Assembly: GCA_937920515.1 (NCBI GenBank)
Contig: CALEUG010000015.1
Location: 251 to 64,250 of the forward strand
Direction: 5' to 3'
Length of the DNA: 64,000 nt
From: an uncultured bacterium
Lineage (GTDB): Bacteria > Acidobacteriota > Aminicenantia > Aminicenantales > Saccharicenantaceae
A model generated the notes under the pieces. The model made no database searches and was not told the origin of the DNA. It worked only from the letters and a program-made list of their open reading frames with translations. Made by a program: the position numbers and the translations under genes. Of the stretch, positions 547 through 19,103 are shown in pieces; within the stretch, counting starts at the first letter, position 1; every line of letters begins with the position of its first letter.

Positions 547-550
547 TCCA

Positions 551-2073: not shown

Positions 2074-2192
2074 TGAGCTTGGATCGGTAATAGTATCAGA
2101 AGAATCAGGTTTAATTTAAAAAAAGACAGGGGACAATGCCAGGAAGGGATGACATAATATTTTCAGACGCTTCTGGCTGAATAAGATGGATA

Positions 2193-2330: not shown

Positions 2331-2509
2331 TATAACAACGCAATAGGCTGGCAGGCGCTTTTTATCGCCATCGGTGGCCCGGAGAGATGTACAGGAAGCG
2401 ACCTATATTTTAAGGCAGAATAAATAGGTCAGGTCAAAATAATCGTGATTGACAAATTGCATAAATAAGCATAGTATGTCGATAAATAGTCGACAAACTA
2501 TGCAGAAAT

Positions 2510-4032: not shown

Positions 4033-4140
4033 TGGTCTTCAGATAATGACATTGAATTCAGCAAGGAATGAGCCAGGCCTTTGATTGGCTATCAGGACTG
4101 CCTGCCCGGGGAAATAACAAGGAAAGGCCACACTTCAGAA

Positions 4141-6009: not shown

Positions 6010-8697
6010 TCAGAGTGCTTTCTGGATTTCCACCAGGGTTGATTGCGGGTCCTGGCGAATTTCAAAATCGCGCTTCTTGAAGACCGCAATCATCCTGGGA
6101 TTATCAGTGGTGGTGTAGGCGATGATTTTTTTCACTCCCCAGGCCCTGGCTATTTCAGTGCAGTAATCGGTCAGTATCCCGCCCAGCCCTTTATTCTGCC
6201 AGTCGTCCTGGACCAGGACCGCATACTCGGCCACCGTCCGCGTCGGGTCGGCCGTCAGGCGGCCGACACCCAGGATTCGGCGCTTGTTCCCGTCCTGGAG
6301 CTCGGCCACGATGGCCATCTCCCGGTCGTAATCGATGTAGCAATAACGGGAGGCCACTTCGTGCGATTGCCAGAAGAAGAAATAGCGGAAGCGCGAATAG
6401 ATTGTTTCCCTGGAGCAGCTGCCGAGAAGCTCAAACCAGAGCGGCTCGTCTTCGGGCCGGATGGGCCGCAGGGTGATTTCGGTGCCGTCGCGCATCCTGG
6501 CCTTCCTGATGAACTCTTCCGGGTAAGGCCGCAGCACCAGGTGCTCGTAGGGCTGTACCTTTTCCGGCGCCACTGCCCGGTCGGCGATTATCCGGGCATC
6601 CAGGGCCACGACCTCTTCCGGGCTGACCAGCAGCGGGTTGATGTCTATCTCTTTGATTTCCGGGTAATCGGCCACCAGGTAAGAAAACCTGATGATGATT
6701 TCGATCAGCCGGTCGATGTTGACCGGAGGTTTCCCGCGATAACCCTTGAGCAGAGGCCAGCTCTTGAGCTGTTCCAGTGCCCTTCTGGCCAGGCGCTCGT
6801 TAAGCGGGGGGAAGCAGATGGACCGGTCCTTGAGCACCTCAGCCGCCGTCCCGCCCAGCCCGACCATGATCACCGCGCCGAAGGTAGGGTCCTTCTTGCT
6901 GCCGATGATCATCTCCAGGGCGTCCCGGGCTTTGACCATCTTCTGGACGACCACGCCCTCAATCCGGGCTTCCGGCCTCCTTTCTTTTACATTTTGCATC
7001 ATCCGGTCGTAGGCTGCTTCCACCATGTGGTCGTCTTCAAGGTCCAGGACGACACCGCCGACGTCTGACTTATGGGTGATATCGGGCGAGTGAATCTTCA
7101 GGACCACCGGGTAACCGATCTCCCGGCTGAGCCTGACCGCTTCTTCCCTGGTTCTGGCCAGGCGGGGCAAAGTGGTGGGAATGCCGTAGGCATCGATAAT
7201 CTTCTTGGAGGTTTCTTCGCTCAGAAATTCAGGCCCGTCGGTCAGCCAGGGTAGAACCTTCTGCCGTATCTTTTCTCTTTCAACTGGAAATTCCACCGAA
7301 ATCTCCCGCGGCGTTTCGTAGAGGTTTTCCAGGTTGCGGGCATAGTTTACCAGGATCATGAAAGCCCGCACCGCCTGCTCGGGCGTTCTGTAGGTCGGGA
7401 TGCCGGCTTCGTTCAGGAGGCGGTTGGCCTCGCTCATGCTGGGTCCACCGAGAAAAGCGGCCAGGACGGGTTTTGTGGATTCGGCGGCTATGGGCAGGAG
7501 TTCCTTGGCGATTCCCGGGGGATTGGTCATGGCCTGGGGAGTTATGATAAGCAGCACGGCATCGACGCCCTCATCCTGCAGGGCGGCCCTGACGGCCTTG
7601 GCCACGGTCTTGCTTTTGGCATCTCCCAGGACGTCGACCGGGTTGCCGTGAGACCAGGCCGGGGGCAGGTTCTGGTTTAAGAATTCAATGGTCTGCGGGC
7701 TGAGCTCGGCCAGCCGGCCGCCGGCTTCAATCAGGGCATCGGAGGCCATGACCCCGGGTCCCCCGGCGTTGGTAACTATGGCCAGCCGCGGGCCCTTCGG
7801 TATCCTGTGACGGCCGATGAGCTCGGCCACGTCAAACATTTCGCCGATTTCAAACACCCTGGCCAGGCCGGCCCGCTGAAAAGCGGCTTCATAGATGGCG
7901 TCTTCTGCGGCCATGGCCCCGGTATGAGATGAAGCGGCTTCGGCCGATTCCGGGAAACGGCCGGCTTTGTAGGCGATTATGGGCTTGGTCCGGGCGTAGG
8001 CTCGGGCTGCCGACATGAAGCGCCTGGGGCTGGAGATGGATTCTATGTACATCAGGATCGACCGGGTGTTTTCGTCCTCGCCAAAGTAATCAATGAGGTC
8101 GCCAAAATCTATGTCCAGGGCGTTGCCGATGGAGACGAAATAGGAAAAGCCGATTTTCTCTTCCAGTGACCAGTCAAGGATAGAGGTGCAGAGGGCCCCC
8201 GACTGGGAGATAAAAGCTATGTGCCCGTTAAGCGGCATGTCAGCCGCAAAGCTGGCGTTGAGGTTGAGCCCGGGCGAGATAACTCCCAGACAGTTGGGTC
8301 CCAGTATGCGCATCCCCGGGAATTTTTTCTTTTCGGCCAGGATCTGTTCTTCCAATGCCCGGCCCTCGGGCCCGGTTTCCCGGAAGCCGGCCGAGATGAT
8401 GATTATGCCCATGATTCCAGCCTGGCCGCACTCAGCCACAATTTTTGGCACCTGAGGGGCGGGAGTGCAGATTACCGCCAGGTCCGGGGTGCGGGGCAGG
8501 CTGGCCACGCCGGTAAAACAGGGGATGCCCATGACGGCTTCCACCGCGGGGTTCACCGGGTAGACCACGCCACGGTAGCCGCCGGTAATAAGGTTGGACA
8601 GGATCTTGCCGCCGACGCTTTTGGGGTTAGGGGTAACGCCAACCAGTGCGATTCGCTGCGGTTTGAATATCTTATCCAGGGTTTCCAGTTCTTCCAT
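6010..8697 (-). CDS. pat: Pat/YfiQ-type protein lysine acetyltransferase: an ADP-forming acyl-CoA-synthetase-like N-terminal region fused to a C-terminal GNAT domain
   Basis: 895 aa. It carries the N-terminal CoA-binding motif (RIALVGVTPNPKSVGGKIL…PVNP), a succinyl-CoA-synthetase-like/ATP-grasp middle region and a C-terminal GNAT (…AVLVQDDWQNKGLGG…). Confidence 0.75.
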   Translation of the reverse strand: MEELETLDKIFKPQRIALVGVTPNPKSVGGKILSNLITGGYRGVVYPVNPAVEAVMGIPCFTGVASLPRTPDLAVICTPAPQVPKIVAECGQAGIMGIIIISAGFRETGPEGRALEEQILAEKKKFPGMRILGPNCLGVISPGLNLNASFAADMPLNGHIAFISQSGALCTSILDWSLEEKIGFSYFVSIGNALDIDFGDLIDYFGEDENTRSILMYIESISSPRRFMSAARAYARTKPIIAYKAGRFPESAEAASSHTGAMAAEDAIYEAAFQRAGLARVFEIGEMFDVAELIGRHRIPKGPRLAIVTNAGGPGVMASDALIEAGGRLAELSPQTIEFLNQNLPPAWSHGNPVDVLGDAKSKTVAKAVRAALQDEGVDAVLLIITPQAMTNPPGIAKELLPIAAESTKPVLAAFLGGPSMSEANRLLNEAGIPTYRTPEQAVRAFMILVNYARNLENLYETPREISVEFPVEREKIRQKVLPWLTDGPEFLSEETSKKIIDAYGIPTTLPRLARTREEAVRLSREIGYPVVLKIHSPDITHKSDVGGVVLDLEDDHMVEAAYDRMMQNVKERRPEARIEGVVVQKMVKARDALEMIIGSKKDPTFGAVIMVGLGGTAAEVLKDRSICFPPLNERLARRALEQLKSWPLLKGYRGKPPVNIDRLIEIIIRFSYLVADYPEIKEIDINPLLVSPEEVVALDARIIADRAVAPEKVQPYEHLVLRPYPEEFIRKARMRDGTEITLRPIRPEDEPLWFELLGSCSRETIYSRFRYFFFWQSHEVASRYCYIDYDREMAIVAELQDGNKRRILGVGRLTADPTRTVAEYAVLVQDDWQNKGLGGILTDYCTEIARAWGVKKIIAYTTTDNPRMIAVFKKRDFEIRQDPQSTLVEIQKAL

Positions 8698-8780
8698 CTC
8701 GGGGCTCCGGAATTATTCGCTTTGCTTTAAGATTAAAATTCCCTTTGGGGCTGCTCCGGGCAGGAGACCGTAAAGGGCAA

Positions 8781-10733
8781 TCACAATTTTAATTTAAATC
8801 CGGTGGAAATTGTAGTGCCCGGCGAACCGTAGCCGTAAACGAGCTCATAGCGGCTGTTTAACAGGTTCTGGACATGGAGGAAAAGGGCAAGCGACTGCTT
8901 GAGGTCATAGCTCAGGAGCAAACTGGCTATGTTTGCCGCTTTGAGCTTTACGGTCCGGGGCGGATAGGAAGAATAATCGACATCCAGCCGGGAACCGATA
9001 TGGTTGAGCTCGGCCGTTAGAGTTATTGATTTATGCGACAGGTTAAAGCGGACGTAGAAGCTTTGCTCCGGCCGGCGAAGAAGCGGGCTTTCCAAAACCA
9101 GGTCCCGGGCCTTGAGGTGAGTCCAGCCCGTGCTGATGTTCCCGTTCTTAAACGGCCTGGCTTCCAGTGAAGCTTCCAGGCCGCGGCTTAGAGCCCGGCC
9201 GACATTCTGGTAGCCAGAGCCGAAATAAAACTGGATTAAGTTCCGAAAGCGGGTTTCAAAATAGGTCAGCGATATGGCCAGCCTGTCGCCAAATTCCTTC
9301 TCTATCCCCGCATCCCAGCCGAGGTTTCTTTCCGGATGCAGGTCCGGGTTACCGATTGGCCCGAAATAATCAGCCGGGGCGAAAAGCTGGTAGAGGGAAG
9401 GGGCTTTAAAGCCGCTGCCGAGCGTGCTTTTCAGCCTGGCCCCGATTTCAGGCAGGTCCAGGCAGGCTGCCGCCCTGAAGGTCAGGGCCTGGCCGAAGCG
9501 CCGGTGATGGTCGGAGCGAAGACCTGCGGTCAACGACAGCCTTTCCCAGGGTTTCCACTGGTCCTGTAAGTAGAGGCCGAGCAGAGAGGCGGTTTTTTGC
9601 GGAAAGCTGCTTTCGTAGTCACCCCACGGGCTGAAATACAGGTAAGAAGAGCTGCCGTATTCCTGGCGATAGTCGGCCCCGAGAACGAGGGTGTGGTTCG
9701 CAGCCAGGAAAAAATTGTTCTGCCAGTCAATCTTAAAAAGCCGGCTGCTGTACAGGGCCCGCTCGCCTTCGCCCGGGTGAACTTCGTCGGCCGGGTTGTC
9801 GTTCTCCCGGCGGCCGGCTTCCAGGCCGAAGACCAGTTTTGGCTGCCAGCGGTGCTGGAAGAGAAAGGCGTCAAGCTCCAGGCGGTTAAAAATAAAGCGA
9901 GATTTCTGGAGAGAATTGGGGTCGTCTCCATAAGGCCCGCCGAAGGCGTCAAGCTCGGCCCGGCCGATGAGCCCGCGGGTCTGCCAGTTGAGGCGAAAGG
10001 ATGGCGAGAGCCGGTAGCTCAACTTCAGGGCCAGGCTCTGCTGGCTGTAGCCGTCAGCCTCGCTGTTTCCTGGATAGCGGCTGTCGGCCTGGGAAATACC
10101 GGCCGTGGCGAAGGTGTTGAATTCGGCCAGCAAGGAGAAATCTCTGAAGACCCGGGCCACCTTGAAATTTCCCTGCCCGGTCCGAAAAGTTCCGAAAAGC
10201 CCGGAAAGGCTGACCTCATTCTTTTCGGGGTCGGCCGTTATCAGGTTTACCACCCCGGCCAGGGCATCAGAGCCGTAAAGGGTGCTCTGGGGGCCGCGCA
10301 GAACTTCCACCCGGTCAACCAGGGCCAGGTTGAACAGGTTAAAATTAAAAGAGCGGGAAGGTGAGACGGGGTCGTTGAGCTCTAAGCCGTCAACCATGAA
10401 GACCGCATGTTCTGAATTGGCGCCACGGATGAAAAGAGAGCCAGACCCGCCGGCCAGGCCGGTTTGAATGAAAAAGAGTCCGGGGATACCTGCCAGTAGA
10501 ATTTCTGGCCTGACAGTCGCCCCCGGCGGTAGCTTTTCGGTTCGGACCAGGCTTATGGCCGAGGCCGTTTCCCTGACCGGGGTTTCCAGTCGGGTGGCCG
10601 TCACCACTATCTCGTGTTGAATTTTTGGCGGCTGGTTCTGGTCATTTAGCAGCGCGCTGGCCGGGCGCTCACCAAAAAGAAACAGGCAAAGAAAGCACAG
10701 GGTTGAAAGTTGGGCAGAAAGGTTTCTTTTCAT
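8781..10733 (-). CDS. btuB: TonB-dependent outer-membrane receptor, probably the cobalamin receptor (BtuB-like)
   Basis: A signal peptide, a TonB box/plug (VVTATRLETPVRETASAISLV) and a 650-aa beta-barrel are present. A cobalamin riboswitch lies in its 5' UTR. Confidence 0.8.
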   Translation of the reverse strand: MKRNLSAQLSTLCFLCLFLFGERPASALLNDQNQPPKIQHEIVVTATRLETPVRETASAISLVRTEKLPPGATVRPEILLAGIPGLFFIQTGLAGGSGSLFIRGANSEHAVFMVDGLELNDPVSPSRSFNFNLFNLALVDRVEVLRGPQSTLYGSDALAGVVNLITADPEKNEVSLSGLFGTFRTGQGNFKVARVFRDFSLLAEFNTFATAGISQADSRYPGNSEADGYSQQSLALKLSYRLSPSFRLNWQTRGLIGRAELDAFGGPYGDDPNSLQKSRFIFNRLELDAFLFQHRWQPKLVFGLEAGRRENDNPADEVHPGEGERALYSSRLFKIDWQNNFFLAANHTLVLGADYRQEYGSSSYLYFSPWGDYESSFPQKTASLLGLYLQDQWKPWERLSLTAGLRSDHHRRFGQALTFRAAACLDLPEIGARLKSTLGSGFKAPSLYQLFAPADYFGPIGNPDLHPERNLGWDAGIEKEFGDRLAISLTYFETRFRNLIQFYFGSGYQNVGRALSRGLEASLEARPFKNGNISTGWTHLKARDLVLESPLLRRPEQSFYVRFNLSHKSITLTAELNHIGSRLDVDYSSYPPRTVKLKAANIASLLLSYDLKQSLALFLHVQNLLNSRYELVYGYGSPGTTISTGFKLKL

Positions 10734-10789
10734 TCATTTTCCTTTCCCCCCGCTTGAAAAAGCTTCTGAGCCGCTCCTCTTTTCTTCCG

Positions 10790-10960
10790 CCCGAAGAAAA
10801 CAGGGGCTGCCGGGTTGAAGGCAGGTATCCTGACTCCCGGGTCTTCCTCCTCCCTAACCTTCCCACCCGCAGGGGCAGTGGCTTTTTGAGGGATTCGTCG
10901 CCGGTTACAGTAGCGGGGGCTGTGTCCGCCTCTCACGGACTTCCCTGCTTCTTAAACCCT
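10790..10960 (-). ncRNA. Cobalamin (AdoCbl) riboswitch in the 5' leader of the TonB-dependent receptor gene
   Basis: The minus-strand RNA reads GGGAAGUCCGUGAGAGGCGGAC…CCCGCUACUGUAACCGG…GCCACUGCCCCUGCGGGUGGGAAGG…GUCAGGAUACCUGCC. This contains the B12-box GCCACUG, the GGGAAG…GGUGNNA…CCCGC core and the CAGGAUACCUGCC 3' element. Confidence 0.75.
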
Positions 10961-11036
10961 GAAACATAATTTATCAAATTTGAGCGCCCTGTCAATTCTG
11001 GCAGAAAAATTGTGGGTCATGAGGTCCGGGGTGATT

Positions 11037-12231
11037 TTACTGAATCTTTCTCGTCCTGCCGGCAAATATCTCCGGATAATTCTTTACCTTGATCCTTTTT
11101 ATCACCGGCCAACCTTCCTGGTCTTCTGAAATGAAATATATGAACCCATTGCTTATCAGCTTCGGCTTTGCCGGGAACTTAACGGATAGCAAATAGTTGC
11201 CCTCTTCACTATAAATGTCTGCTTCATATACTTTCTGTTTGCGCTCTTTTCGAGATATGGTTACTACGTATAACCTGTTCGATTCATCTAAAAGCAATGC
11301 ATTGAAAAGAGGTGCAGGATTTCCACGATTAACACCATTTCTTGTCCGTTGACTGGATGTCTCTAAGTTCGCGCCTCTCGAAATAGGGGGACCATTAATT
11401 GTTCTGACCAGATTCCCGGAATAATCGTAAAAATTGATAACATATTGCAAGTTGTGAGCTATCCACACGCCGTTTCTGGAAGGACAGATGATAAAAGACG
11501 GGAGGTTTTCGGGGTTAATAACACCTCCAACCACCCCCCCCTTCTTTACTGAACCTCAAGGTCCAGAGGCCGTGATCCTTGGGTCCCTGAAGGATATATT
11601 TTATTCTTCCCTGTCTATCTAACGCGGAGATTTGTCCAATTTTACCTGATTCTGTACTTAATTAGGTCACACCTATTATTCCATCATCATTGTTGGCGGC
11701 GAAATTGCTGGCCAGAAATGCTTCCAATGGAAATTGAGTTAAGAATTCACCATCCTTTGAATATATTATTATTTTTCTTCCTTGGTCGTTGATTAATATC
11801 TTGTCTTTTGTCAACTGCATTCCAAGTATCATTGTAAACTCGCCTGGCCCCTGACCGGTTGATCCAATTTCTCTGATTAAATTGCCATTGGCGTCCCATT
11901 CGGTAATTTTATCCTGTTCCAGCGCATAATATTTACCCCATTCGCTGAGAAAAAAATCCCGGATGGTTTTGGTTCCTGATTGCGACGCGTTTATAAAAAT
12001 CTCTTCATTACCGTCAAATAATAATTCTAAATCTGCAGGCCGTATGAATTGTCGTAACTTAAAAAAACCAATTCCTATAAGAACAGCAACCAAAACGACC
12101 GCAAAAGATAATGCTTGCCTTCCCCGCATCTTGAATCTTATTTCAGGTGGAGCAATCTCAAAGCAGAATATCTTATACCATTGGAGGCACAACCTCGCAG
12201 TATGAACCCCACCAGGCTCCGCCGTACTCAC
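11037..12231 (-). pseudogene. Disrupted 6-bladed beta-propeller (NHL-repeat / BF3164-like) membrane-anchored protein. It is split by an in-frame TAA at 11662-11664 and by a frameshift at a G8/C8 homopolymer (11534-11541).
   Basis: The upstream part (11662-12231) has an N-terminal TM segment and NHL-like GSTGQGPGEF motifs. The reading frame stays open past the TAA until the poly-G tract, where the downstream ORF (11037-11534) continues in another frame with the same repeat flavour. Confidence 0.45.
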
Positions 12232-12451
12232 AGAAAATGCCTCTTATCGGTCCTCCCGAATAATACCTGTAATAACCACAGACCTCATGCCCGCCGCAAT
12301 TTCCGAAAGTTTCGCAGAAAAGCAAGGTCCCGTCTCCGCATATAAAATTAAGGCCGCAGCTTAAGGCAGGCCGGCTGACCGTAAGAAAAAAGCCTGCAAT
12401 GAGAGAGATGGCGATAAGAATTAAAGTTGCCAATCGCTTAAAGTTTAACAT
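12173..12451 (-). CDS. Small peptide (92 aa) with a signal-peptide-like N-terminus and 7 cysteines
   Basis: The N-terminal hydrophobic segment is MLNFKRLATLILIAISLIAGFFLTV. The mature region has 7 Cys and many Gly/aromatic residues (…CGLNFICGDGTLLFCETFGNCGGHEVCGYYRYY…). It lies between two beta-propeller lipoprotein genes. Confidence 0.4.
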   Translation of the reverse strand: MLNFKRLATLILIAISLIAGFFLTVSRPALSCGLNFICGDGTLLFCETFGNCGGHEVCGYYRYYSGGPIRGIFCEYGGAWWGSYCEVVPPMV

Positions 12452-12475
12452 GTTAAACCCCCTTAAAAAATTTAT

Positions 12476-13570
12476 TCATATATCAGCCTCAAAAATTAAC
12501 GGCTGCCTGTTTTCTGGGTTAGTAGCCAGGCCAAACATTCTTCCGACAGGCAAGATAACAAAGCAATCTATGTAAGAGGTAATATCTTGGTCATTAAGAA
12601 TTATCTTAAGCGTTCCGAGGAAATCGGCCTTAAGGTTGAATAATAGAAATTTCTCATAACCAAGGTAGTAGATAGTCCCTTTATAGATTCCAATCCCTCT
12701 GTTCATTCTGACCAACCGAATCTCATTTGGTTTATTCTGTTTTTCAGGCGTGTCAGCCATAATTTCTTTCTGGCGGTCCAGGGCGCGATTAATTTCAGGT
12801 ATATCTGATAGAGCGAGATCTCTTTTGAATATCTCCCTTCCGGTTATCCGATCAAAGGCAAATACTATCGGCAGGCAGGTATAAGCGCCATAGATAACTC
12901 GATCGTCACCAGACAGCTCAACCAGGTTAAAATGCAGATGGGCTATGGATGAGGAACATCTTATGGCTTTTCCGAAAGAACGGATTTGAGTGAAATCATA
13001 ATCAAATATGGAAATAATAGGTTCCTCGTTCATCTCAGCGATAGACCGGGTAACCTTTTTTGCCGGCACAATCAATTGATTTTCCTGACCAATAATGAGA
13101 GCGGGAAGGAAATAGTTTCCTTTTTTTGATATCACTTTTATAAAGGAGCCAAAGCGATTGAATATTTTTATCTCTGCACCAGAGTTGTTTATAACGGCCA
13201 ATATCTTATCGTTGGCGGTAACAACCACGGGGTAATACAGATCTGTTTCTCTCTGACCTATACCTCCAATTATTCTTTTAAGTTTTCCCACCCTATCAAT
13301 TTCCAGGATCCTGTGCCTTTTAGAATCGATCAGATATGCTGTAAGATCTTCAGTCATATGGAAGAGCTTTGTCTGAAAAAATGTCCTGGCAATTTCGAAT
13401 TCCGTCTCAAGCTTCTGCAAATCCAAAAATGTTCTGGCTGTGATTACCTTTTCGGATGAATTCCGATCAGCTGACAAGGGATTTTTCTGGTGGCAGGAAA
13501 TAATAGCACAGAATAATAATATGAAAGGCGCAGCTGCCTTAAAAAAGGCCGATGTTCTGCGTATTATCAT
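12476..13570 (-). CDS. 6-bladed beta-propeller lipoprotein (NHL/TolB-like, BF3164-like family)
   Basis: It has a lipoprotein signal (…FILLFCAIISC). The 364-aa repeat-rich body resembles 11037-12231. It is AT-rich. Confidence 0.5.
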   Translation of the reverse strand: MIIRRTSAFFKAAAPFILLFCAIISCHQKNPLSADRNSSEKVITARTFLDLQKLETEFEIARTFFQTKLFHMTEDLTAYLIDSKRHRILEIDRVGKLKRIIGGIGQRETDLYYPVVVTANDKILAVINNSGAEIKIFNRFGSFIKVISKKGNYFLPALIIGQENQLIVPAKKVTRSIAEMNEEPIISIFDYDFTQIRSFGKAIRCSSSIAHLHFNLVELSGDDRVIYGAYTCLPIVFAFDRITGREIFKRDLALSDIPEINRALDRQKEIMADTPEKQNKPNEIRLVRMNRGIGIYKGTIYYLGYEKFLLFNLKADFLGTLKIILNDQDITSYIDCFVILPVGRMFGLATNPENRQPLIFEADI

Positions 13571-14277
13571 TTCATTTTCCTTTTGAAATTTTTAATTTTC
13601 TCAGTTATTTCTTTAATTATTCTTTCTTCTGTTAATCCCGGGTACTCAGTCCAGATGACCACTCTATCATTATCAATAAGAACAGACCAGGGATCACACT
13701 TTAAATTTTCCTCTGTTATATAAATGTTATCTTCGGGCATGAAGTTTTGAATTAAATACGTATCGAAATTCAATACCTGGTAGCTTTTAATCATTTTGAT
13801 ATCATCAGTAGAAAAAGGCTCCATGAAAAAAATTCCTGTGAACATGTTATCAATTGAATTCATGTAAATTTTCTGGAGAGTTTCAAGACGGTTCATATGT
13901 TTGCAGGTCCGGCAGTAAGAATATGAAGAAAAGAAAGTGAGAATATTTAATTTTTTTAGGGTGTCTGATAAGGACTTTTTTTGCCCGTTTATTTCATAAA
14001 GCGTAAAGTCAGGTATAATTTGCTTTTCAAAAAATGGGGGATGCCAGAAAGGCGGGGTCTTACTGATTTCATCTATATCAAGGTATCTTTCTATTAGTTG
14101 TCTTAGCAGGTCTGGCTGGAGAAGCTCGTTTTCCTTGAAAATGATTTCTTGCTCAGGGCCGACAAGCATGGTGGCGCCACAGCAGCCATTCAGGTTATGC
14201 TTTTTGATAAATTGGGTTATTTCAGCGTTAAAAATACAGCCCTGCTCGCCTGGAAGCAGGGCCTGGGTGAAGGGCAA
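13567..14277 (-). CDS. Thioredoxin-fold protein of the TlpA/redoxin family with a CRTC active-site motif. The true start is probably internal, around MLVGPEQ.
   Basis: The sequence DFTLYEINGQKKSLSDTLKKLNILTFFSSYSYCRTCKHM matches the TlpA-like pattern (x-FW-ATWC-xxC). It overlaps the upstream gene by 4 nt. Confidence 0.5.
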   Translation of the reverse strand: MPFTQALLPGEQGCIFNAEITQFIKKHNLNGCCGATMLVGPEQEIIFKENELLQPDLLRQLIERYLDIDEISKTPPFWHPPFFEKQIIPDFTLYEINGQKKSLSDTLKKLNILTFFSSYSYCRTCKHMNRLETLQKIYMNSIDNMFTGIFFMEPFSTDDIKMIKSYQVLNFDTYLIQNFMPEDNIYITEENLKCDPWSVLIDNDRVVIWTEYPGLTEERIIKEITEKIKNFKRKMK

Positions 14278-14753
14278 GGAAAGGAGGGGATTAAGAGAAG
14301 GAGGCTTTAAGGTTTAACCTCTGGTCAAGCCTTAAAATTCCTCTTATTCTCATCTTTGCTCACTTAGATTAACATTCTGGCTGGGGATTTGGTTGCGCGG
14401 TGTAATCCGGAAAGTTTTTTGATTAAGACAGGGGTTAAAATTAAAGATATAAACGCGAAATAAAAAGAGTCTATTTTTCTCTGATTTTCGACTTTTCCCC
14501 TTACTGACAACATAACTATTTTACCATAACAATAATTTTTTTGCAAGAAATTTTTTACAGTTTTTAAAATTTTGCTGAAATTTCTTGTCCGTCGCTGTTA
14601 TAAGGGGAAAAAAGAGGCTCCGGATGCAAATTTTCGGGCTGAAGACTTTAATTTTGCGCCCTTCCGGGGTTAAAATAGCCATGTCTGGCGGAATAAACGC
14701 CTGATAGCGGCTGAAAAACTCAGGCAAACGTCGGTTTTGCGGGAGAAAGGCCC

Positions 14754-16169
14754 ATGAATAAGGAAAATTTCAGAAAATATGGCTATCAACTCGTAGACTG
14801 GGTGGCCGATTACCTGGAAAACGCCGAAAAGTACCCGGTCATGTCTGTGGTTCAACCGGGAGAAATCAAGGCCAGGCTGCCGGTTTCGCCCCCGGCCCAC
14901 GCCGAGGAAATGGACCGGATACTGGAAGATTTTAACAGCATTATCATGCCCGGTATTACCCACTGGCAGCATCCTGGCTGGTTTGCCTACTTTCCGGCCA
15001 ATAACAGCCCGGCCTCCATACTGGGGGAGCTGCTGGCCGCTGGACTGGGAACTCAGGGCATGGTCTGGCAGACTTCTCCGGCTGCCACCGAGCTGGAAGA
15101 AGTGGTCATGGACTGGCTGCGCCAGATGATAGGGTTGCCCGAGGGCTATGCCGGCGTCATCCAGGATACCGCCTCCACGGCTACCCTGTGCGCCCTGCTG
15201 GCTGCCCGGGAAAAAATCTCCGGTTTCAGGATAAATTACGAAGGCTTCGAAGGAGCCCTCCGGGTTTATGCCTCCCGGGAAGCGCATTCCAGCGTTGACA
15301 AGGGGGTTAAAATTGCCGGCTTTGGCAAAAAGAATCTGGTTCATATTCCGGTTGATGATGAATTTGCCCTGATTCCCGGCGAACTGGAGCGGGCCATTGA
15401 GAACGACCTTAAGGCCGGGCTTAAACCGGCCTGCGTGGTGGCCACCGTCGGCACCACCTCTTCCGGGGCGGTTGACCCTCTGAAACCCATCGGAGAAATC
15501 TGCCGCAGGTACGGCCTCTGGCTGCACGTCGATGCCGCCTATGCCGGAACGGCGGCCATTCTGCCCGAGAAGCGCTGGGTCCTGGAAGGCGCCGGGCTGG
15601 CCGATTCGCTGGTCTTTAACCCGCACAAGTGGATGCTGACCAACTTTGACTGCTCGGCCTTCTTTGTTAAGGAGCCGGAGGTCCTGACCCGCACCTTTGA
15701 AATTCATCCGGAATATCTCAAGACCGGCGTCGATGCCGTGGTCAAGAATTACCGAGACTGGGGAATTCAACTCGGGCGCCGGTTCCGGGCCCTGAAGCTG
15801 TGGTTTGTGCTGCGGAGCTACGGGGTGGAGGGGATCAAGAAAATAATCCGCCGCCATATTCACCTGGCCGAGCTCTTCCGCGATGAACTGCAGCAGGACC
15901 GGCGGTTTGAAATCCTGGCCCCGGTTTACTTCAGCCTGGTCTGCTTCAGGTTGAACGACGGGCGGCCGGAAGCCGGGCTTAACGAACTCAACCGGAAGCT
16001 GCTGGAAGCGGTTAACTCAACCGGCAGGCTATTCATGACCCATACCACGCTCAACGGAAAATATACTCTGCGGCTGGTGGTCGGGCAGAGAACAACCGAG
16101 GAAAGACACGTCCGCCTGGCCCTGGAGATAATAAAGCAGAAGGCCGGGGAGCTGCTTCTGTCTTCTTGA
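14754..16169 (+). CDS. PLP-dependent aromatic-L-amino-acid decarboxylase (group II decarboxylase; tyrosine/DOPA/tryptophan decarboxylase family)
   Basis: 471 aa. It has the PLP-lysine motif NPHKWMLTNFDCSAFF and the WQHPGWFAYFP/HVDAAYAG signatures of group II decarboxylases. Confidence 0.8.
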   Translation: MNKENFRKYGYQLVDWVADYLENAEKYPVMSVVQPGEIKARLPVSPPAHAEEMDRILEDFNSIIMPGITHWQHPGWFAYFPANNSPASILGELLAAGLGTQGMVWQTSPAATELEEVVMDWLRQMIGLPEGYAGVIQDTASTATLCALLAAREKISGFRINYEGFEGALRVYASREAHSSVDKGVKIAGFGKKNLVHIPVDDEFALIPGELERAIENDLKAGLKPACVVATVGTTSSGAVDPLKPIGEICRRYGLWLHVDAAYAGTAAILPEKRWVLEGAGLADSLVFNPHKWMLTNFDCSAFFVKEPEVLTRTFEIHPEYLKTGVDAVVKNYRDWGIQLGRRFRALKLWFVLRSYGVEGIKKIIRRHIHLAELFRDELQQDRRFEILAPVYFSLVCFRLNDGRPEAGLNELNRKLLEAVNSTGRLFMTHTTLNGKYTLRLVVGQRTTEERHVRLALEIIKQKAGELLLSS

Positions 16170-16535
16170 GAACCCCGGGCAGAGATAAGTTTATTATCTT
16201 AATTTTTTAAATTTGAAGGGGCAGCGGCTGCGGTAATTTCGACTCTGCACTTATCTGGACCCGGTTTTTTTTATCGACTTTCGCTCGCAGCAAAAAGACC
16301 CGGGTAAAAAGACCCTGTGGTTTCAGCACCTTAAAAAGTTCCAATCTGTTAAAGAATTGCTGATTTGAATCTTAAATTCACATCACGGAAATTTTCGATG
16401 AAATATTTACCTTCAGCTTAAAGATAGCAGAGTGAACGGCAGAAACCGAAAAGAGGCAGCGGCGCACTTCTCATTTATAAGAATATATCTGGTTTGCTTG
16501 TTCTGCCGATTGCCTGAGCGCCTGGTCCCGGTTGC

Positions 16536-18725
16536 CTATTTATCTGCTGGGCGGGCGCTCCAGCGGTATTCGCCCTTCGGGTCGGGGATTCTGAGATAAT
16601 AACCCCAGCCGCCAGCACCCTGCAGGACTTTTATCAGCACTTTGTTCCAGCCGGCCTTCAGGCTAACCTTAACCCTGTCCTGGTCGGGATAAGCCCCGCG
16701 GTAGGTCGGGTTGGTGTGGACCAGCAGGTCGTTGACCCAGAGCCTGACGCCGTCATCGCTTCCCAGGAGCAGAACGGCTTCGCGGTCTTCGGGCGAATAA
16801 AGATAAGTCAGGCCGTAAGCAACGGCCTGCTCGTTGGGCTGCAGGAGCTGGCTCAGGGCCACGTAGCCACCGGCCGGGGCTTTAACCTGTTTCCAGGTTA
16901 CCGGCAGTCCGCCCTTGCCCTGGTAGGAGCGGTTAAACCTTGTTTCCCGCTCCGGCGGATAGACAGTGGTCAGGTGGTTCATGTCGGGCGCGTCAAAGGG
17001 TCCTATCAAGTACCAGTCCAGGGCGAAATTCTGATTGGCCGGGATAAGGTTTACTCCAGCGATGGCCAGGTCGTAACCCGTCGACCTCACGTCTTTTCCG
17101 GTCACTTCCAGCCAGAAAACGCTTTCTTCCGGAGATAGCTCCCGGGCTTTGATGGTCAGGGTTTCTATCACTGCTTCCTGGCCATAGCCGTTGACCCTGG
17201 CCAGTGTCTGGTATTCCGGCTCGGGCGGAGCTGCTGGCTCGAGCTGTTTCTGCTTTTCCTGTTCCTCTTTCTTCTTTTCTTCTTCTGTTTTTTCTTCCTC
17301 TATCTCTTCCTGTGTTTCTTCCGCCTTCAGTTTTTCTTCCGGGCTGACCGTTACTTCCGCTTTCGGAATTTCTTTCAGGATGGACCAGTTGCCGAGCCCG
17401 GGCCCCTTCAGGTAATAAACCTGGATATCGTAAATATCATGCAGGCTGGCCTTCAGGCTGAGCCTGGCCCGGAAGCCCGGGCTGGCCCCCTCAGAGGTTA
17501 TGGCCTGGTACCTCTGTCCGCCCTGGTCATAATAAGAGGTAAGAACCTGAGCCAGGGCCGGAGCGCTAATTCTGGCGCCGCTGACATTGTCCTGATAGGT
17601 TGTTTCGTTACCTTCAATATTGTTGATTTTCACCCAGAGCGGCAGGGTAAAGTTATCCCTGGTTTCCAGGGCAAAGGGCAGGCGCCTGTCGACCGGGGGG
17701 AAAGGAGGAAAGGGCTTATGCGGCTCGGTCTGGTACCAGTATGCCACCGAGCTGTAGAAATCAGAACGGTCGTTGGCGTGGCCGTGCTCTATGGTAACCA
17801 TTATCGACCGGGAGAAGGGGATGGGGTCGGTCAGGTGGAATCTATAAACTGTGGCCTTGGCTCCCTCCTGGAAATCTTCTTCCTGGATTGAACAGCCATA
17901 ATAAAGGTTGTTGCCTTCCCTCATTCCCCAGGCGTCGGAAAAATAGTCCTCGCTTCCGGTGCCGTGAAGGGAAGGAAATTCTTCCCCGTCCACATATATC
18001 ATGTCGTCGCCTTCACCCCACCAGCCCATCGACCTCTGCAGGACGCTCAGGTTGCAACCAACGTAGTGCCCCCGGCCGACTGCATCCAGGATGAGGTAAT
18101 TTTTCCCGGGCTCGCAGGGAAATTCCTGGCGGTACTGGGCGTGAAAGTAGGGAACGTCGGGCTTGAGGTCATCGAGTTCCCGGTAATCTATGTAGTAATA
18201 AAAAGAGCCCACGGGACGGCTGCCTTCGTTGGTCACGGTGATGCGGGCTGACCAGCGGAAAGGCATGTACCAGTAACAGTTGAGGGCCCGGCCCTCGGAA
18301 GAACGGACGATGGGTATCGATACCAGGTTGCGGTTGAGACCATGCCCGACGGCAAAAAAATCGCCCACGGGGACTTCAACCGAAGGCGTGTCCTCTCCGT
18401 CCCAGAACATTCTCAGAACCAGCTTGCGCCCGTAAAAAGCTTCGGCTGAAATGGTAAACCAGAGGTGATGAATGGCTGCCGGCCCCTTGATTTCGGCCAG
18501 GACTGCGGTCTGGCCCGGGGCAATGCTGATGGCGTCGCGGTTGCCACCGGTCGGGTCAAAAGAAGAAATCCTTTTGCTGCGGTAATTCTGTTTTTCGCCC
18601 AGCGAGGAGAGGATATTCTGGGCATAAGCCACGGTGAATATCAACAGAAGTATAAAGAATATACAGAAGATATGGTTTTTTAGACTTCTTCCCGGCGTTT
18701 TTCTCGCACGGCTTAAAATTTTCAT
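16536..18725 (-). CDS. Secreted DUF2961 / glycoside hydrolase family 172 protein with a Glu/Lys-rich charged linker and a C-terminal extra domain
   Basis: A signal peptide is present. The DUF2961 hallmarks (GRGHYVGCN…WWGEGDD…HGTGSEDYF) are in the N-terminal half. A low-complexity EEKLKAEETQEEIEEEKTEEEKKKEEQEKQKQ linker follows, then about 230 aa of C-terminal domain. Confidence 0.7.
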   Translation of the reverse strand: MKILSRARKTPGRSLKNHIFCIFFILLLIFTVAYAQNILSSLGEKQNYRSKRISSFDPTGGNRDAISIAPGQTAVLAEIKGPAAIHHLWFTISAEAFYGRKLVLRMFWDGEDTPSVEVPVGDFFAVGHGLNRNLVSIPIVRSSEGRALNCYWYMPFRWSARITVTNEGSRPVGSFYYYIDYRELDDLKPDVPYFHAQYRQEFPCEPGKNYLILDAVGRGHYVGCNLSVLQRSMGWWGEGDDMIYVDGEEFPSLHGTGSEDYFSDAWGMREGNNLYYGCSIQEEDFQEGAKATVYRFHLTDPIPFSRSIMVTIEHGHANDRSDFYSSVAYWYQTEPHKPFPPFPPVDRRLPFALETRDNFTLPLWVKINNIEGNETTYQDNVSGARISAPALAQVLTSYYDQGGQRYQAITSEGASPGFRARLSLKASLHDIYDIQVYYLKGPGLGNWSILKEIPKAEVTVSPEEKLKAEETQEEIEEEKTEEEKKKEEQEKQKQLEPAAPPEPEYQTLARVNGYGQEAVIETLTIKARELSPEESVFWLEVTGKDVRSTGYDLAIAGVNLIPANQNFALDWYLIGPFDAPDMNHLTTVYPPERETRFNRSYQGKGGLPVTWKQVKAPAGGYVALSQLLQPNEQAVAYGLTYLYSPEDREAVLLLGSDDGVRLWVNDLLVHTNPTYRGAYPDQDRVKVSLKAGWNKVLIKVLQGAGGWGYYLRIPDPKGEYRWSARPADK

Positions 18726-19103
18726 CGGGCAACCTCTTTTTGAGGAATTTATGTCACCAAATTATAACTTTTTTTATTCTGGTAAATCCACAGGACAAGA
18801 GCAGCAGGTGGCCGGGGGCTTAAAATAATTATCATAAGAAGCCAATCGGGATAAGCGCCTGCCCGTCAGGAGCTGAGGCGGCCCAACTGCTTTTTGGTGC
18901 GGGGCAACTGACAACATCAAGACCGGGATTATTCTTTCCCGGATCCAGTTCAGGCTGGCCCGGCAGGACAGGTTCCCGGAAATAAAAATTTTGTGAATTT
19001 CAGCCTGGCCCCGAACACGATTTTGTTTGATAAATCAGGGAATTGCTTAAAAGTTTCCCCTCTTTAATTTTTCTGATCGCAGAAAGCGGTAAAGGCCGGC
19101 CAG

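What the first reader, a model, noticed from the sequence alone, without database searches (positions are those of the whole stretch)
11037..14277. AT-rich island: beta-propeller lipoproteins, a signal-peptide-bearing peptide with 7 Cys and a TlpA-like CxxC redoxin
This roughly 3.3 kb minus-strand block has about 38-40% GC against about 58% in the flanks, which suggests horizontal acquisition. It encodes two paralogous 6-bladed beta-propeller (NHL-like) membrane/lipoproteins, one of them disrupted. A 92-aa precursor with a signal-peptide-like N-terminus and a Gly/aromatic-rich region with 7 Cys lies between them. A thioredoxin-fold protein with a CRTC motif follows and is translationally coupled to the intact propeller gene. 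A disulfide-rich secreted peptide together with a dedicated thiol-disulfide oxidoreductase and propeller lipoproteins looks like a self-contained extracytoplasmic peptide system (bacteriocin-like, signalling or surface-modulating). I do not recognise it as any characterised module.
Basis: inference. Interest (0 to 1): 0.7.

Follow-up and report, generated by a model that had tools for sequence, protein, structure and literature searches.

The report
Decaying Cys-peptide, propeller, thioredoxin cassette
The AT-rich block is a real, rare four-gene cell-envelope cassette of uncultured Saccharicenans bacteria (a secreted 8-cysteine mini-protein, two membrane-tethered NHL propellers and a double thioredoxin-like protein), but the copy in this window is a broken remnant and the cassette's function is unknown.

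Summary
Window 11037-14750 has 40% GC against about 54-60% around it. On the minus strand it encodes a thioredoxin-like ORF, an intact NHL propeller lipoprotein, a 92-aa Cys-rich peptide and a disrupted DUF5128 propeller. The four-gene order recurs in about ten lineages: at this same site in all sampled Ca. Saccharicenans, and in unrelated contexts elsewhere. It is always lower in GC than its flanks. The peptide has eight conserved Cys with fixed spacing, and its predicted five-strand beta fold matches no solved structure. The first gene is a tandem TlpA/ResA-like protein with a signal peptide.

The window's copy is decaying. A 486-bp deletion between 13-bp repeats removed the promoter-proximal DNA and the first ~104 codons of the redoxin, including the signal peptide. 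Propeller B carries a nonsense codon and a frameshift. The peptide has lost one Cys (C76Y). Relatives 97% identical are intact.

No transporter, immunity or modification genes are present, and there is no phage or plasmid match. The most likely reading is an accessory, mobile envelope module in which the redoxin services the disulfide-rich mini-protein bound by the propellers. It parallels the uncharacterised Bacteroidales NVEALA/DUF5128 cassettes and the Trx-NHL proteins NHLRC2 and SOQ1. Function is inferred, not shown.

The parts
14201..14213 (-). Deletion junction. A single copy of the 13-bp repeat AATTTATCAAAAA remains. Intact relatives have two copies 486 bp apart, which bracket the promoter-proximal DNA and codons 1 to ~104 of the redoxin gene.
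13567..14213 (-). 5'-truncated remnant of the tandem TlpA/ResA-like redoxin gene, corresponding to codons ~105-319 of a 319-aa protein. It retains the end of domain 1 (CCGAT, 14184-14170) and all of domain 2, with CRTC (13914-13903) and KCDPW (13701-13687). It has no start codon context and no signal peptide.
12476..13570 (-). Propeller A, an intact 364-aa NHL-type beta-propeller. It has a lipobox (FILLFCAIISC, Cys26) and one invariant mature Cys (C205). It has no Pfam or NCBIfam family. Its start overlaps the redoxin stop (ATGA).
13121..13127 (-). A7 tract (minus strand) inside propeller A. The homologous tract differs in length, in frame versus out of frame, between near-identical sequences in two lineages (A7/A6 and A9/A8). 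It is a candidate slippage or phase-variation site.
12173..12451 (-). 92-aa precursor of a Cys-rich mini-protein. It has an N-terminal hydrophobic helix (aa 4-25) followed by a ~55-aa five-strand beta domain. Family Cys pattern: C-x5-C-x7-C-x5-C-x5-C-x15-C-x-C-x8-C.
12224..12226 (-). Codon 76, TAC (Tyr). The other 10 distinct family sequences have Cys here, so the window's peptide has an odd, unpaired Cys count.
11037..12129 (-). Propeller B pseudogene (DUF5128/NHL propeller, 365 aa when intact, with an N-terminal membrane anchor).
11662..11664 (-). In-frame TAA in propeller B. Relatives have TTA (Leu) here.
11534..11541 (-). G8 run (minus strand) carrying a +1 insertion relative to intact relatives, which shifts the frame of propeller B.
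14228..14546 (-). Retained upstream region, probably flank rather than cassette. It holds a promoter-like site (14546-14518), a conserved CU-rich motif and a terminator hairpin (14263-14238). This is a candidate small RNA or leader.

Best explanation
The block is the local copy of a rare, accessory, compositionally foreign four-gene envelope cassette.

The intact cassette encodes:
1. An exported tandem TlpA/ResA-like protein. Domain 1 lacks the CxxC motif; domain 2 has CxxC plus a conserved Cys beside the putative cis-Pro.
2. NHL propeller A.
3. A small secreted or membrane-anchored beta-rich protein with eight conserved Cys.
4. NHL/DUF5128 propeller B.

In each of the five intact lineages checked, one propeller has a lipobox and the other a plain hydrophobic N-terminus.

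Inferred mechanism. All four products act outside the cytoplasm. The two tethered propellers form a binding platform, or an enzyme, for the mini-protein. The dedicated redoxin forms, shuffles or reduces the mini-protein's disulfides. Functionally this would be a split version of the Trx-like + NHL + small beta-domain arrangement of NHLRC2 and SOQ1. It would also be a counterpart of the Bacteroidales NVEALA/DUF5128 cassettes.

Behaviour of the module. It looks like dispensable, contingency-type surface or envelope gene sets. It evolves faster than its flanks, occurs in different genomic contexts, is often found frameshifted at a homopolymer tract, and is lost by decay.

State in this window. 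The cassette is a relic. The redoxin is decapitated by a repeat-mediated 486-bp deletion, propeller B is a pseudogene, and the peptide has lost a conserved Cys. Only propeller A looks intact.

Shown: anatomy, conservation, fold assignments and lesions. Inferred: export, physical association, the redox relationship and any biological role.
For: Conserved gene order and sizes:
- Every full-length locus has the same order (redoxin 317-321 aa, or 376 aa in L007; propeller A 364-375 aa; peptide 89-92 aa; propeller B 357-371 aa). Where the redoxin/propeller A junction was read, the two ORFs overlap.
- The cassette sits at the same site in all sampled Saccharicenans and in other contexts in L007, L016 and JGI 3300042731.

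Composition and divergence:
- GC is below the flanks in every locus that has substantial flanking sequence.
- Module proteins are 42-52% identical between lineages whose flanking proteins are 70-88% identical. The L007 module is closer to the window's than the syntenic L001 module is.

Peptide:
- 11 distinct sequences, 7 invariant Cys plus an 8th missing only in the window.
- The mature part is 65-76% conserved between the Saccharicenans, L007 and L016 lineages (41% to the most distant member, P0007). The N-terminal region is 16-48% conserved.
- The AF2 model has pLDDT 79, with one helix and five strands.

Redoxin:
- The AF2 model shows two beta-alpha-beta Trx-like halves, with CxxC at the N-terminus of a helix.
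- Foldseek top hits are ResA, SdbA, TlpA, Etrx, StoA and DsbE, at E about 1e-6 and TM about 0.7.
- Intact homologues have N-terminal hydrophobic signals. The window's remnant has none.

Propellers:
- NHL matches at E=3.6e-10 and 5e-13; DUF5128 hits.
- Lipobox and membrane-anchor patterns.

Lesions:
-.
- Relatives 97% identical in DNA are intact and are seen on 18-46 contigs. The degraded alleles are on one contig only.

Homopolymer polymorphism.

Analogues:
- A Phocaeicola plasmid cassette with an NVEALA Cys-rich protein, two DUF5128 propellers and a CYPC protein.
- The SOQ1 lumenal Trx-like + NHL + beta-stranded C-terminal domain, with proposed disulfide exchange (bioRxiv 10.1101/2021.03.16.435614).
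- NHLRC2 (PMC6107167).

Other low-GC patches of the window are accessory defence genes, an R-M system and an AbiE-like pair.
Against: - No experiment or expression data exist for any member.
- Export is inferred from hydrophobic N-termini and a regex lipobox, not from SignalP or LipoP.
- Physical interaction between the peptide, the propellers and the redoxin is untested. No multimer model could be run.
- The redoxin model has only moderate confidence (pLDDT 65, 3-sequence alignment), and sequence searches against Trx families stay below curated thresholds.
- The peptide and the redoxin show no detectable homology to their Bacteroidales counterparts, and the CYPC protein there has no demonstrable Trx fold. 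That parallel is one of organisation only, apart from the DUF5128 propeller.
- The homopolymer differences could be assembly or sequencing errors.
- The high conservation of the mature peptide is also compatible with a diffusible ligand.
Confidence: 0.45

Rival explanations
1. Secreted antimicrobial or signalling peptide system. The 8-Cys peptide is the exported effector, the redoxin matures its disulfides, and the propellers act as immunity, receptor or export-assisting proteins.
For: - The product is small and disulfide-rich with an N-terminal signal-like sequence.
- It has a dedicated redoxin.
- The module is accessory, low in GC, patchily distributed and fast-evolving.
- Inactivated copies are frequent, as with dispensable antagonism loci.
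Against: - None of the loci examined has an ABC or other exporter, a peptidase, a small membrane immunity protein or a RiPP-modifying enzyme.
- A Sec-type signal delivers only to the periplasm of a diderm, and TonB receptors are present.
- The mature peptide is the most conserved element of the cassette, the opposite of typical toxin diversification.
- There are no hits to PADLOC, PHROGs, Pfam or NCBIfam bacteriocin families.
Confidence: 0.15
2. The window's cassette is still functional in reduced form. Propeller A and the 7-Cys peptide work together, and the redoxin remnant is translated from the fused TTG or the internal ATG (14169). The lesions would then be adaptive remodelling or reversible phase-off states.
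For: - Propeller A and the peptide ORFs are intact and have Shine-Dalgarno-like sequences.
- dN/dS against the intact relative is below 1 for all genes, 0.26-0.58.
- The propeller B frameshift lies in a G8 run that could slip back.
Against: - The deletion removed about 160 bp upstream of the redoxin gene, probably including the operon's promoter (inferred), together with the redoxin's signal peptide, so any product would stay cytoplasmic.
- Propeller B also has a TAA substitution upstream of the G-run, which slippage cannot repair.
- The lost Cys is invariant in the other 10 distinct sequences.
- The dN/dS values rest on 7-35 substitutions per gene and mostly reflect history before the lesions.
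Confidence: 0.12
3. The lesions are artefacts of metagenome assembly or binning, such as collapse at the 13-bp repeat or homopolymer and consensus errors. The genome would really carry an intact cassette.
For: - The source is evidently a MAG-type contig.
- Homopolymer indels are a known error class.
- The deletion endpoints are short repeats, where assemblers can mis-join.
- The degraded alleles are recorded on a single 179-kb contig.
Against: - There are four independent lesions of three different kinds within 3.2 kb: a deletion, a substitution to a stop, an indel and a missense change of an invariant Cys. The rest of the region aligns cleanly at 97% identity, with no other indel in the cassette.
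- The same fragment sequences are listed under NCBI, ENA and Logan sources, which suggests that independent assemblies reproduce them. This last point is an inference.
Confidence: 0.08
4. A periplasmic quinoprotein-type or other redox enzyme. The Cys-rich peptide would be a cofactor-bearing small subunit, a propeller the large subunit and the redoxin a MauD-like assembly factor, as in methylamine dehydrogenase or QHNDH. It might act on the amine made by the neighbouring PLP decarboxylase.
For: - The composition superficially resembles the mau cluster (own knowledge): a propeller subunit, a small Cys-rich subunit with a signal peptide, and a thioredoxin-like MauD.
- In Saccharicenans an aromatic-amino-acid-type decarboxylase is the divergent neighbour.
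Against: - The only candidate Trp (W81) is not invariant, being absent in P0007, and the second Trp is absent in several members.
- No MauG-like haem protein, MauE or radical-SAM QhpD is present in any locus.
- The decarboxylase linkage is absent in L007 and L016.
- The propellers match NHL repeats, not the MADH heavy chain.
Confidence: 0.04

Closest known systems
Bacteroidales NVEALA / DUF5128 ('6-bladed beta-propeller', BF3164-like) cassettes, for example Phocaeicola vulgatus plasmid pPvulCL10_1 (NZ_CP096966.1, 15.7-19.9 kb)
   Same: The parts list is the same: a ~100-aa protein with an N-terminal hydrophobic segment and a Cys-rich C-terminal part, two tandem DUF5128 propellers, and a small protein with a CxxC motif (CYPC) between them. 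Propeller B is detectably homologous to these propellers (hhalign 95.7% probability, E=1e-8). Those cassettes are likewise uncharacterised; a full-text search for NVEALA or DUF5128 found no study.
   Different: The window's peptide has no NVEALA motif and no detectable similarity to PF14055 proteins. The redoxin is a 319-aa tandem Trx-like protein unrelated in sequence to the 176-aa CYPC protein, whose Trx fold is itself unproven. Propeller A is outside DUF5128. Gene order differs, and the host phylum is Aminicenantota, not Bacteroidota.
NHLRC2 (animals) and SOQ1 lumenal region (plants): Trx-like + six-bladed NHL propeller + C-terminal beta-stranded domain
   Same: These proteins show the same functional coupling of a thioredoxin-like CxxC domain with an NHL propeller and a small beta-stranded Cys-containing domain. 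In SOQ1 the redox motif lies at the Trx-NHL interface, and disulfide exchange with the beta-stranded C-terminal domain is proposed (bioRxiv 10.1101/2021.03.16.435614; NHLRC2 structure PMC6107167).
   Different: There the three parts are domains of one polypeptide; here they are four separate genes, with two propellers and a tandem Trx. The SOQ1 C-terminal domain is nDsbD-like with few Cys, whereas this peptide has eight Cys and no detectable fold relative. No specific sequence relationship to NHLRC2 or SOQ1 was found. The resemblance is one of function and architecture, not family membership.
Extracytoplasmic TlpA/ResA/StoA/Etrx-type thiol-disulfide oxidoreductases
   Same: The fold is the same: the AF2 model's best PDB matches are ResA, SdbA, TlpA, Etrx1/2, StoA and DsbE. 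CxxC sits at the N-terminus of a helix. Intact members have an export signal. Like StoA, ResA and TlpA, it would serve a dedicated client (own knowledge of those proteins).
   Different: It is a tandem of two Trx-like domains, the first without CxxC but with conserved Cys92 and a vicinal Cys-Cys. The CxxC dipeptide is not conserved (RT, LS, PE, ST, SN). It scores below the Pfam and NCBIfam thresholds for AhpC-TSA, Redoxin and ResA. No CcdA/DsbD partner is encoded nearby.
E. coli AssT-DsbL-DsbI: a periplasmic beta-propeller enzyme with its own dedicated Dsb pair (own knowledge)
   Same: It is a precedent for a beta-propeller protein encoded next to a private thiol-disulfide oxidoreductase that services it.
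   Different: AssT is an arylsulfotransferase propeller from a different family. The only Arylsulfotrans match seen was a weak, sub-threshold one for the Phocaeicola DUF5128 propeller, not for the cassette's own proteins. That system has no small Cys-rich protein, and DsbL/DsbI are DsbA/DsbB-like rather than TlpA-like.

Membership tests
TlpA/ResA-like extracytoplasmic thioredoxin-fold oxidoreductase | Thioredoxin fold (beta-alpha-beta-alpha-beta-beta-alpha core) | tested here: met
   The AF2 model of the full-length homologue P0006 (44% identical to the window's remnant) shows two such halves. Foldseek top hits are ResA, SdbA, TlpA, Etrx and StoA at E about 1e-6 and TM about 0.7. Model confidence is moderate (pLDDT 65).
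TlpA/ResA-like extracytoplasmic thioredoxin-fold oxidoreductase | CxxC active site at the start of helix alpha-1 | tested here: met
   CRTC lies at aa 122-125 of the window ORF. Both Cys are invariant in all homologues, and the motif sits immediately before helix 210-223 in the model.
TlpA/ResA-like extracytoplasmic thioredoxin-fold oxidoreductase | Score above the curated family thresholds (Pfam AhpC-TSA/Redoxin, NCBIfam ResA) | tested here: not met
   AhpC-TSA scores 17-21 bits against a cut-off of 26. Redoxin scores 14.9 against 26.6. ResA NF002854 scores 14.8 against 170.
TlpA/ResA-like extracytoplasmic thioredoxin-fold oxidoreductase | Export signal or membrane anchor placing it outside the cytoplasm | tested here: not met
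   The window's copy has no hydrophobic N-terminus (maximum Kyte-Doolittle 15-residue average 0.83), because the 5' end is deleted. Intact homologues have one (1.75-2.27), and L010 has a lipobox. No SignalP run was possible.
NHL-repeat / DUF5128 six-bladed beta-propeller | Significant match to NHL propellers or PF17170 | tested here: met
   Propeller B scores 33-42 bits on PF17170 against a cut-off of 22.9, and E=5e-13 to the Thin NHL domain. Propeller A has no Pfam hit but matches Thin at E=3.6e-10 and Brat at E=1.4e-7.
NHL-repeat / DUF5128 six-bladed beta-propeller | Six blades forming a closed propeller | not tested
A blade-HMM self-search found only one clear repeat per protein. Six blades are inferred from the family name and the ~330-aa domain size only.
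Bacteroidales NVEALA/DUF5128 cassette | Small protein carrying the NVEALA domain (PF14055) | tested here: not met
   There is no PF14055 hit for the window, L010 or L007 peptides. hhalign of the peptide family against a bona fide NVEALA protein gives probability 0.25%.
Bacteroidales NVEALA/DUF5128 cassette | Tandem DUF5128 propellers adjacent to the small protein | tested here: inconclusive
   Propeller B is a DUF5128 member and homologous. Propeller A is not detectably so (11% probability).
Bacteriocin / RiPP gene cluster | Leader peptide with a processing site, plus a dedicated transporter, immunity protein or modifying enzyme in the locus | tested here: not met
   No such genes lie within or next to the cassette in any of the contexts examined. 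No family hits were found.
TTQ/CTQ quinoprotein amine dehydrogenase (mau/qhp-type) | Invariant Trp (and Cys or Trp partner) for the cofactor; MauG or radical-SAM maturase | tested here: not met
   W81 is replaced in P0007 and W80 is variable. No haem or radical-SAM gene is present in any locus.
Genomic island / mobile element | Deviant composition and presence in unrelated genomic contexts | tested here: met
   The module is 10-17 GC points below its flanks in 6 loci. It sits in different contexts in L007 and L016 compared with Saccharicenans.
Genomic island / mobile element | Integrase or transposase, tRNA target, or flanking direct or inverted repeats | tested here: not met
   The nearest tRNAs are about 45 kb away. 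No convincing terminal repeats were found. No mobility genes lie in the flanks. There is no phage or plasmid DNA match.
Phase-variable contingency locus | Coding homopolymer whose length differs, in frame versus out of frame, among near-identical sequences | tested here: inconclusive
   The same poly-A site in propeller A is A7 (window and P0019, in frame) versus A6 (L008), and A9 (L016 and L017) versus A8 (L009). Sequencing error cannot be excluded without reads.

The most novel reading that the evidence does not exclude
The intact cassette would be a previously undescribed, horizontally mobile envelope system. A new disulfide-knotted beta mini-protein fold would be held by two membrane-tethered NHL propellers and serviced by a private tandem thioredoxin. 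This would be a prokaryotic, split-gene counterpart of the enigmatic Trx-NHL proteins NHLRC2 and SOQ1. It would be switched on and off by homopolymer slippage, and it would point to the function of the abundant but unstudied NVEALA/DUF5128 cassettes of gut Bacteroidales.
Probability: 0.25. Interest if true: 0.65.

Novelty: new variant of a known kind. Interest (0 to 1): 0.45.

Why it matters
- Three of the four protein families (the peptide, propeller A and the tandem redoxin) have no curated family. Each has only a handful of members among billions of predicted proteins. Yet they are strictly co-inherited, so they define a discrete functional unit that nobody has studied.
- The cassette's composition links two open problems. 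One is what the very common Bacteroidales '6-bladed beta-propeller / NVEALA' gene arrays do. The other is what substrate-level role the conserved Trx-like + NHL pairing (NHLRC2, SOQ1) plays.
- A small four-gene bacterial version with a candidate client protein would be an experimentally tractable model for both.
- For this particular window the practical message is a caution. The locus is a decaying copy and should be annotated as pseudogenes, not mined as a working peptide system.

Tried and rejected
1. Lipoprotein status of the peptide. The invariant Ser/Thr-Cys after the hydrophobic segment suggested a lipobox, but the PROSITE-type pattern fails in most members because of charged residues upstream. 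This is left open; signal peptidase I cleavage or a signal anchor is equally possible.
2. TTQ/CTQ small-subunit idea. Rejected: there is no invariant Trp and no maturase gene.
3. Functional link to the adjacent cobalamin riboswitch and BtuB-like receptor, including a BtuG-like propeller idea. Rejected: the riboswitch has its own promoter-like site and lies downstream of the cassette, and the linkage is absent in L007 and L016.
4. Prophage, plasmid, IS or defence-system origin. No DNA or profile matches.
5. Known RNA family in the long upstream leader. Nothing credible in Rfam.
7. AFDB50 fold search. The library was not available.
8. Counting propeller blades with a blade HMM. Uninformative.
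9. Sequence-only proof of the Trx fold for the CxxC domain. PDB profile search gave only E=0.24 to a thioredoxin, plus spurious kringle hits. The fold assignment rests on the AF2 model.
10. dN/dS as evidence of relaxed selection. There are too few substitutions.
11. Finding an 'empty site' in a relative lacking the cassette.

Full report
**1. The observation**

- A sliding GC profile shows a sharp trough from about 11000 to 14750. GC there is 0.32-0.45, against 0.55-0.63 on either side.
- Over 11037-14277, GC is 0.401, against 0.537 for the rest of the window. GC3 of the three intact-looking ORFs is 0.41-0.50, against 0.67-0.71 for the flanking TonB receptor, decarboxylase and GH172 genes.
- The first two ORFs overlap in ATGA at 13567-13570.
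- The peptide has Cys at positions 32, 38, 46, 52, 58, 74 and 85.

**2. What the proteins are**

Library scans give little.

- Only the upstream fragment of the broken gene passes a threshold, for DUF5128, the '6-bladed beta-propeller' family (PF17170, 34.9 bits against a cut-off of 22.9).
- The first ORF gets only sub-threshold AhpC-TSA, Redoxin and ResA hits.
- The 364-aa protein and the peptide get nothing.

Family profiles built from homologues are clearer.

- Propeller A matches solved NHL propellers: Thin at E=3.6e-10 and Brat at 1.4e-7.
- Propeller B does too: Thin at 5e-13, and TRIM71 and TRIM2/3 at about 1e-8.
- The two families align to each other over 87 columns (hhalign 92% probability, E=7e-7). 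They are distant paralogues sharing NHL blades.
- I could not verify the blade count.

For the redoxin:

- An AF2 model of a full-length homologue (P0006; pLDDT 65, pTM 0.57) shows two consecutive Trx-like beta-alpha-beta units, with CxxC at the N-terminus of a helix.
- Its best PDB matches are all extracytoplasmic TlpA-type proteins: ResA, SdbA, TlpA, Etrx1/2, StoA and DsbE, at E about 1e-6 and target-normalised TM about 0.7.
- The 'TlpA-like' call is therefore supported at fold level but not at curated-family level.

**3. The cassette elsewhere**

The peptide has homologues.

- A word-indexed search of 5.8 billion clusters found three besides itself.
- An exhaustive profile search of 1.8 billion representatives added one distant member, P0007, and nothing else credible.
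- Genome and metagenome scans with the motif [FW]C[EQ]TFG[NDY]C added more loci.
- In all I have 11 distinct peptide sequences.

In the loci that span the whole cassette the gene order is the same: tandem redoxin (317-321 aa, or 376 aa in L007), propeller A (364-375 aa), peptide (89-92 aa), propeller B (357-371 aa). Where I read the junction, the redoxin and propeller A ORFs overlap.

Record titles identify the window's relatives as Candidatus Saccharicenans, phylum Aminicenantota, formerly OP8.

- In all sampled Saccharicenans lineages the cassette lies at the same place. It sits between a divergent PLP-dependent decarboxylase and a cobalamin riboswitch plus TonB-dependent receptor.
- In L007, L016/L009 and the JGI contig carrying P0007 it lies in unrelated contexts.

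The propeller A and tandem-redoxin families are as rare as the peptide, with 5 and 2 hits respectively. Public annotations call the proteins 'hypothetical', 'peroxiredoxin family' or '6-bladed beta-propeller'. The peptide is usually not annotated.

**4. Conserved features**

Peptide:

- Seven Cys are invariant. An eighth, at position 76, is present in every sequence except the window's.
- The spacing is C-x5-C-x7-C-x5-C-x5-C-x15-C-x-C-x8-C. Blocks such as FCETFG, CGYYRYY, GGPIRG and WGSYCE are conserved.
- The mature part is 65-76% identical between lineages (41% to the most distant member, P0007), while the propellers and redoxin are only 42-59% identical. The N-terminal 31 residues are 16-48% identical, as expected of a signal or anchor.
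- The AF2 model (pLDDT 79) predicts a helix at aa 4-25 followed by five beta-strands between aa 31 and 84.

Redoxin:

- Domain 1 has FDPxNLxHR where CxxC would be, plus conserved Cys92 and a vicinal Cys-Cys (CCGAT).
- Domain 2 has FFSSxSxCxxC and LKCDPW. The xx dipeptide varies: RT, LS, PE, ST, SN.
- Intact members start with a hydrophobic signal.

Propellers:

- Propeller A has one invariant mature Cys, C205.
- In Saccharicenans, A has a lipobox and B an uncleaved-looking membrane anchor. In L007 and L016 the roles are swapped.
- In all five intact lineages checked, therefore, one propeller is lipid-anchored and the other helix-anchored.

**5. The window's copy is a relic**

The closest relatives (L019-L023) are 97.1% identical in DNA to window 14213-8700. 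They carry four intact genes. Against them the window shows four lesions.

- (a) A 486-bp deletion. Its endpoints are two copies of AATTTATCAAAAA, and one copy remains at 14201-14213. The deletion removes about 160 bp upstream of the redoxin gene and its first ~104 codons. The '236-aa ORF' is therefore non-coding upstream DNA, including a terminator-like hairpin, read through into codon ~105. The remnant has no export signal.
- (b) TTA to TAA at 11664-11662 in propeller B.
- (c) A +1 G in the run at 11534-11541.
- (d) TGC to TAC at codon 76 of the peptide.

No other indel separates the two cassettes. The degraded fragments are recorded for one 179-kb contig only. The intact alleles are recorded on 18-46 contigs.

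Four lesions of three different kinds in 3.2 kb argue for genuine decay rather than assembly error. Only the reads can settle this.

**6. Instability is a family trait**

- Propeller A is split in L008, L009, L011 and an NCBI Saccharicenans MAG.
- In two separate lineages the frameshift lies in the same poly-A tract. One lineage has A7 in frame (window, P0019) versus A6 (L008). The other has A9 (L016, L017) versus A8 (L009).
- In the L010 lineage the tract is interrupted.
- This is what slipped-strand phase variation looks like, but homopolymer sequencing error is an alternative.

**7. Origin**

- The cassette is 10-17 GC points below its flanks in all six loci that have substantial flanking sequence.
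- Between the window and the L001 lineage, the cassette proteins are 42-52% identical and the flanking proteins 70-88% identical. The L007 cassette, from a different context, is closer to the window's than the syntenic L001 cassette is.
- The window's other low-GC patches are a ThaI-type restriction-modification pair and an AbiE-like pair.
- These points favour foreign origin and horizontal exchange or allelic replacement.
- The insertion predates the split of the sampled Saccharicenans lineages. No integrase, transposase, tRNA or terminal repeat marks the borders. There is no phage or plasmid match.
- L018, a uniformly low-GC contig, holds a distant and heavily frameshifted version.

**8. Mechanism**

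Shown: four co-inherited genes, with predicted extracytoplasmic targeting of all four intact products, a TlpA-like fold with CxxC, NHL propellers, and an 8-Cys beta mini-protein.

Inferred: the redoxin's client is the mini-protein (four disulfides), possibly together with propeller A's lone Cys. The propellers, tethered to the membranes, bind or process the mini-protein.

Two precedents make this coupling plausible.

[quoted passage not shown] In SOQ1 the redox motif sits at the Trx-NHL interface, and a small beta-stranded C-terminal domain is proposed to exchange disulfides with it.
- In Bacteroidales, a Phocaeicola plasmid carries an NVEALA protein (Cys-rich C-terminal part), a DUF5128 propeller, a CYPC protein and a second DUF5128 propeller in a row. 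Only the DUF5128 propeller is homologous to the window's cassette. The peptide and redoxin are not, and the CYPC protein's fold is unproven.

Rivals:

- The bacteriocin or signal reading lacks any transporter, immunity or modification gene, and sits badly with the high conservation of the mature peptide.
- A quinoprotein-dehydrogenase reading fails on the missing invariant Trp and the missing maturases.
- A link to B12 uptake fails because the riboswitch has its own promoter-like site (10995-10968), and the association is lineage-specific.

**9. Verdict**

Its description is accurate apart from missing that the redoxin is truncated and that 7 Cys is a defect.

The interpretation as a self-contained extracytoplasmic module is supported by neighbourhood conservation. 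'Bacteriocin-like' is not specifically supported.

The cassette as a family is a new variant of a known but uncharacterised kind of gene array (small Cys-rich protein + DUF5128 propellers + CxxC protein). Three of its protein families are unclassified, and the peptide fold has no detectable relative. The copy in this window is a pseudogenised relic, which lowers the value of this locus itself.

Noticed in passing
window 10803-10976 (-), 8781-10733 (-), 10995-10968 (-): A cobalamin riboswitch (Rfam RF00174, 107.5 bits) lies immediately downstream of the cassette. It has its own strong promoter-like site (TTGACA-16-TAAATT with TG) and controls a TonB-dependent (BtuB-like) receptor. The linkage to the cassette is specific to Saccharicenans.
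   Followed up: partly
window ~14228-14546 (-): A candidate ~290-nt small RNA or 5' leader lies between the decarboxylase and the cassette. It has a promoter-like site TTGCAA-17-TAAAAT (14546-14518), a CU-rich anti-Shine-Dalgarno-like motif CCCCTCCTTTCCTTGC (about 14290-14270) that is 87% conserved even in the distant L001 lineage, and a terminator hairpin (14263-14238) with a T-run. RNAalifold pairs the motif with a conserved 5' AAGGGGAA. Only four sequences were available, and there is no Rfam match.
   Followed up: partly
window 26992-28580 (-): A second low-GC patch (0.39-0.40) encodes a ThaI-type restriction endonuclease (PF15514, E=7e-92) and an N6/N4 DNA methylase, i.e. a horizontally acquired R-M system.
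   Followed up: partly
window 1-3200 (+): A third low-GC patch (0.37-0.46) holds an AbiEii/DUF2204-like nucleotidyltransferase (1609-2073), an AbiEi-like antitoxin (2510-3169) and two ORFs with no family.
   Followed up: partly
window 8700-18800 vs L019: Identity to the nearest relative is mosaic: 97% across the cassette, riboswitch and receptor, 91% across the decarboxylase and 85% across the GH172/DUF2961 gene. This suggests recombination breakpoints near the cassette's upstream edge.
   Followed up: no
window 12173-12451 vs L019 7120-7398: The peptide gene is more diverged from the 97%-identical relative than its neighbours are. It has 24 substitutions in 276 bp and dS 0.22, against dS 0.02-0.07 in the other genes.
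   Followed up: no
L007 1078-3623, L016 3156-5701 vs window/L010/L001: The anchor types are swapped between lineages. Propeller A has a lipobox and propeller B a membrane helix in Saccharicenans, and the reverse holds in L007 and L016. Each of the five intact lineages checked keeps one of each.
   Followed up: partly
L018 (FWPU01001338.1) 4095-8243 and 8652-8885: A distant version of the cassette (28-42% identity) lies in a uniformly low-GC contig and is broken by many frameshifts. Downstream is another 77-aa signal-bearing Cys-rich ORF (about 11 Cys) and a further propeller fragment.
   Followed up: no
L016 157-624 and 900-1460: A LAGLIDADG-type homing-endonuclease-like ORF and a GC-rich stretch, possibly an rRNA intron region, lie just upstream of the cassette in this unrelated context. 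A third NHL-like lipoprotein lies at 7910-9034.
   Followed up: no
L001 ~7880-7911: A T10 run sits between a TTGACA and a TATAAT immediately upstream of the redoxin gene. If this is the promoter, spacer-length slippage could give phase-variable transcription.
   Followed up: no
window 14754-16169 (+), 16536-18725 (-): The flanking core genes are an aromatic-amino-acid-type PLP decarboxylase (PF00282, E=9e-115), divergent from the cassette, and a 729-aa GH172/DUF2961 protein with a Glu/Lys-rich low-complexity insert.
   Followed up: no
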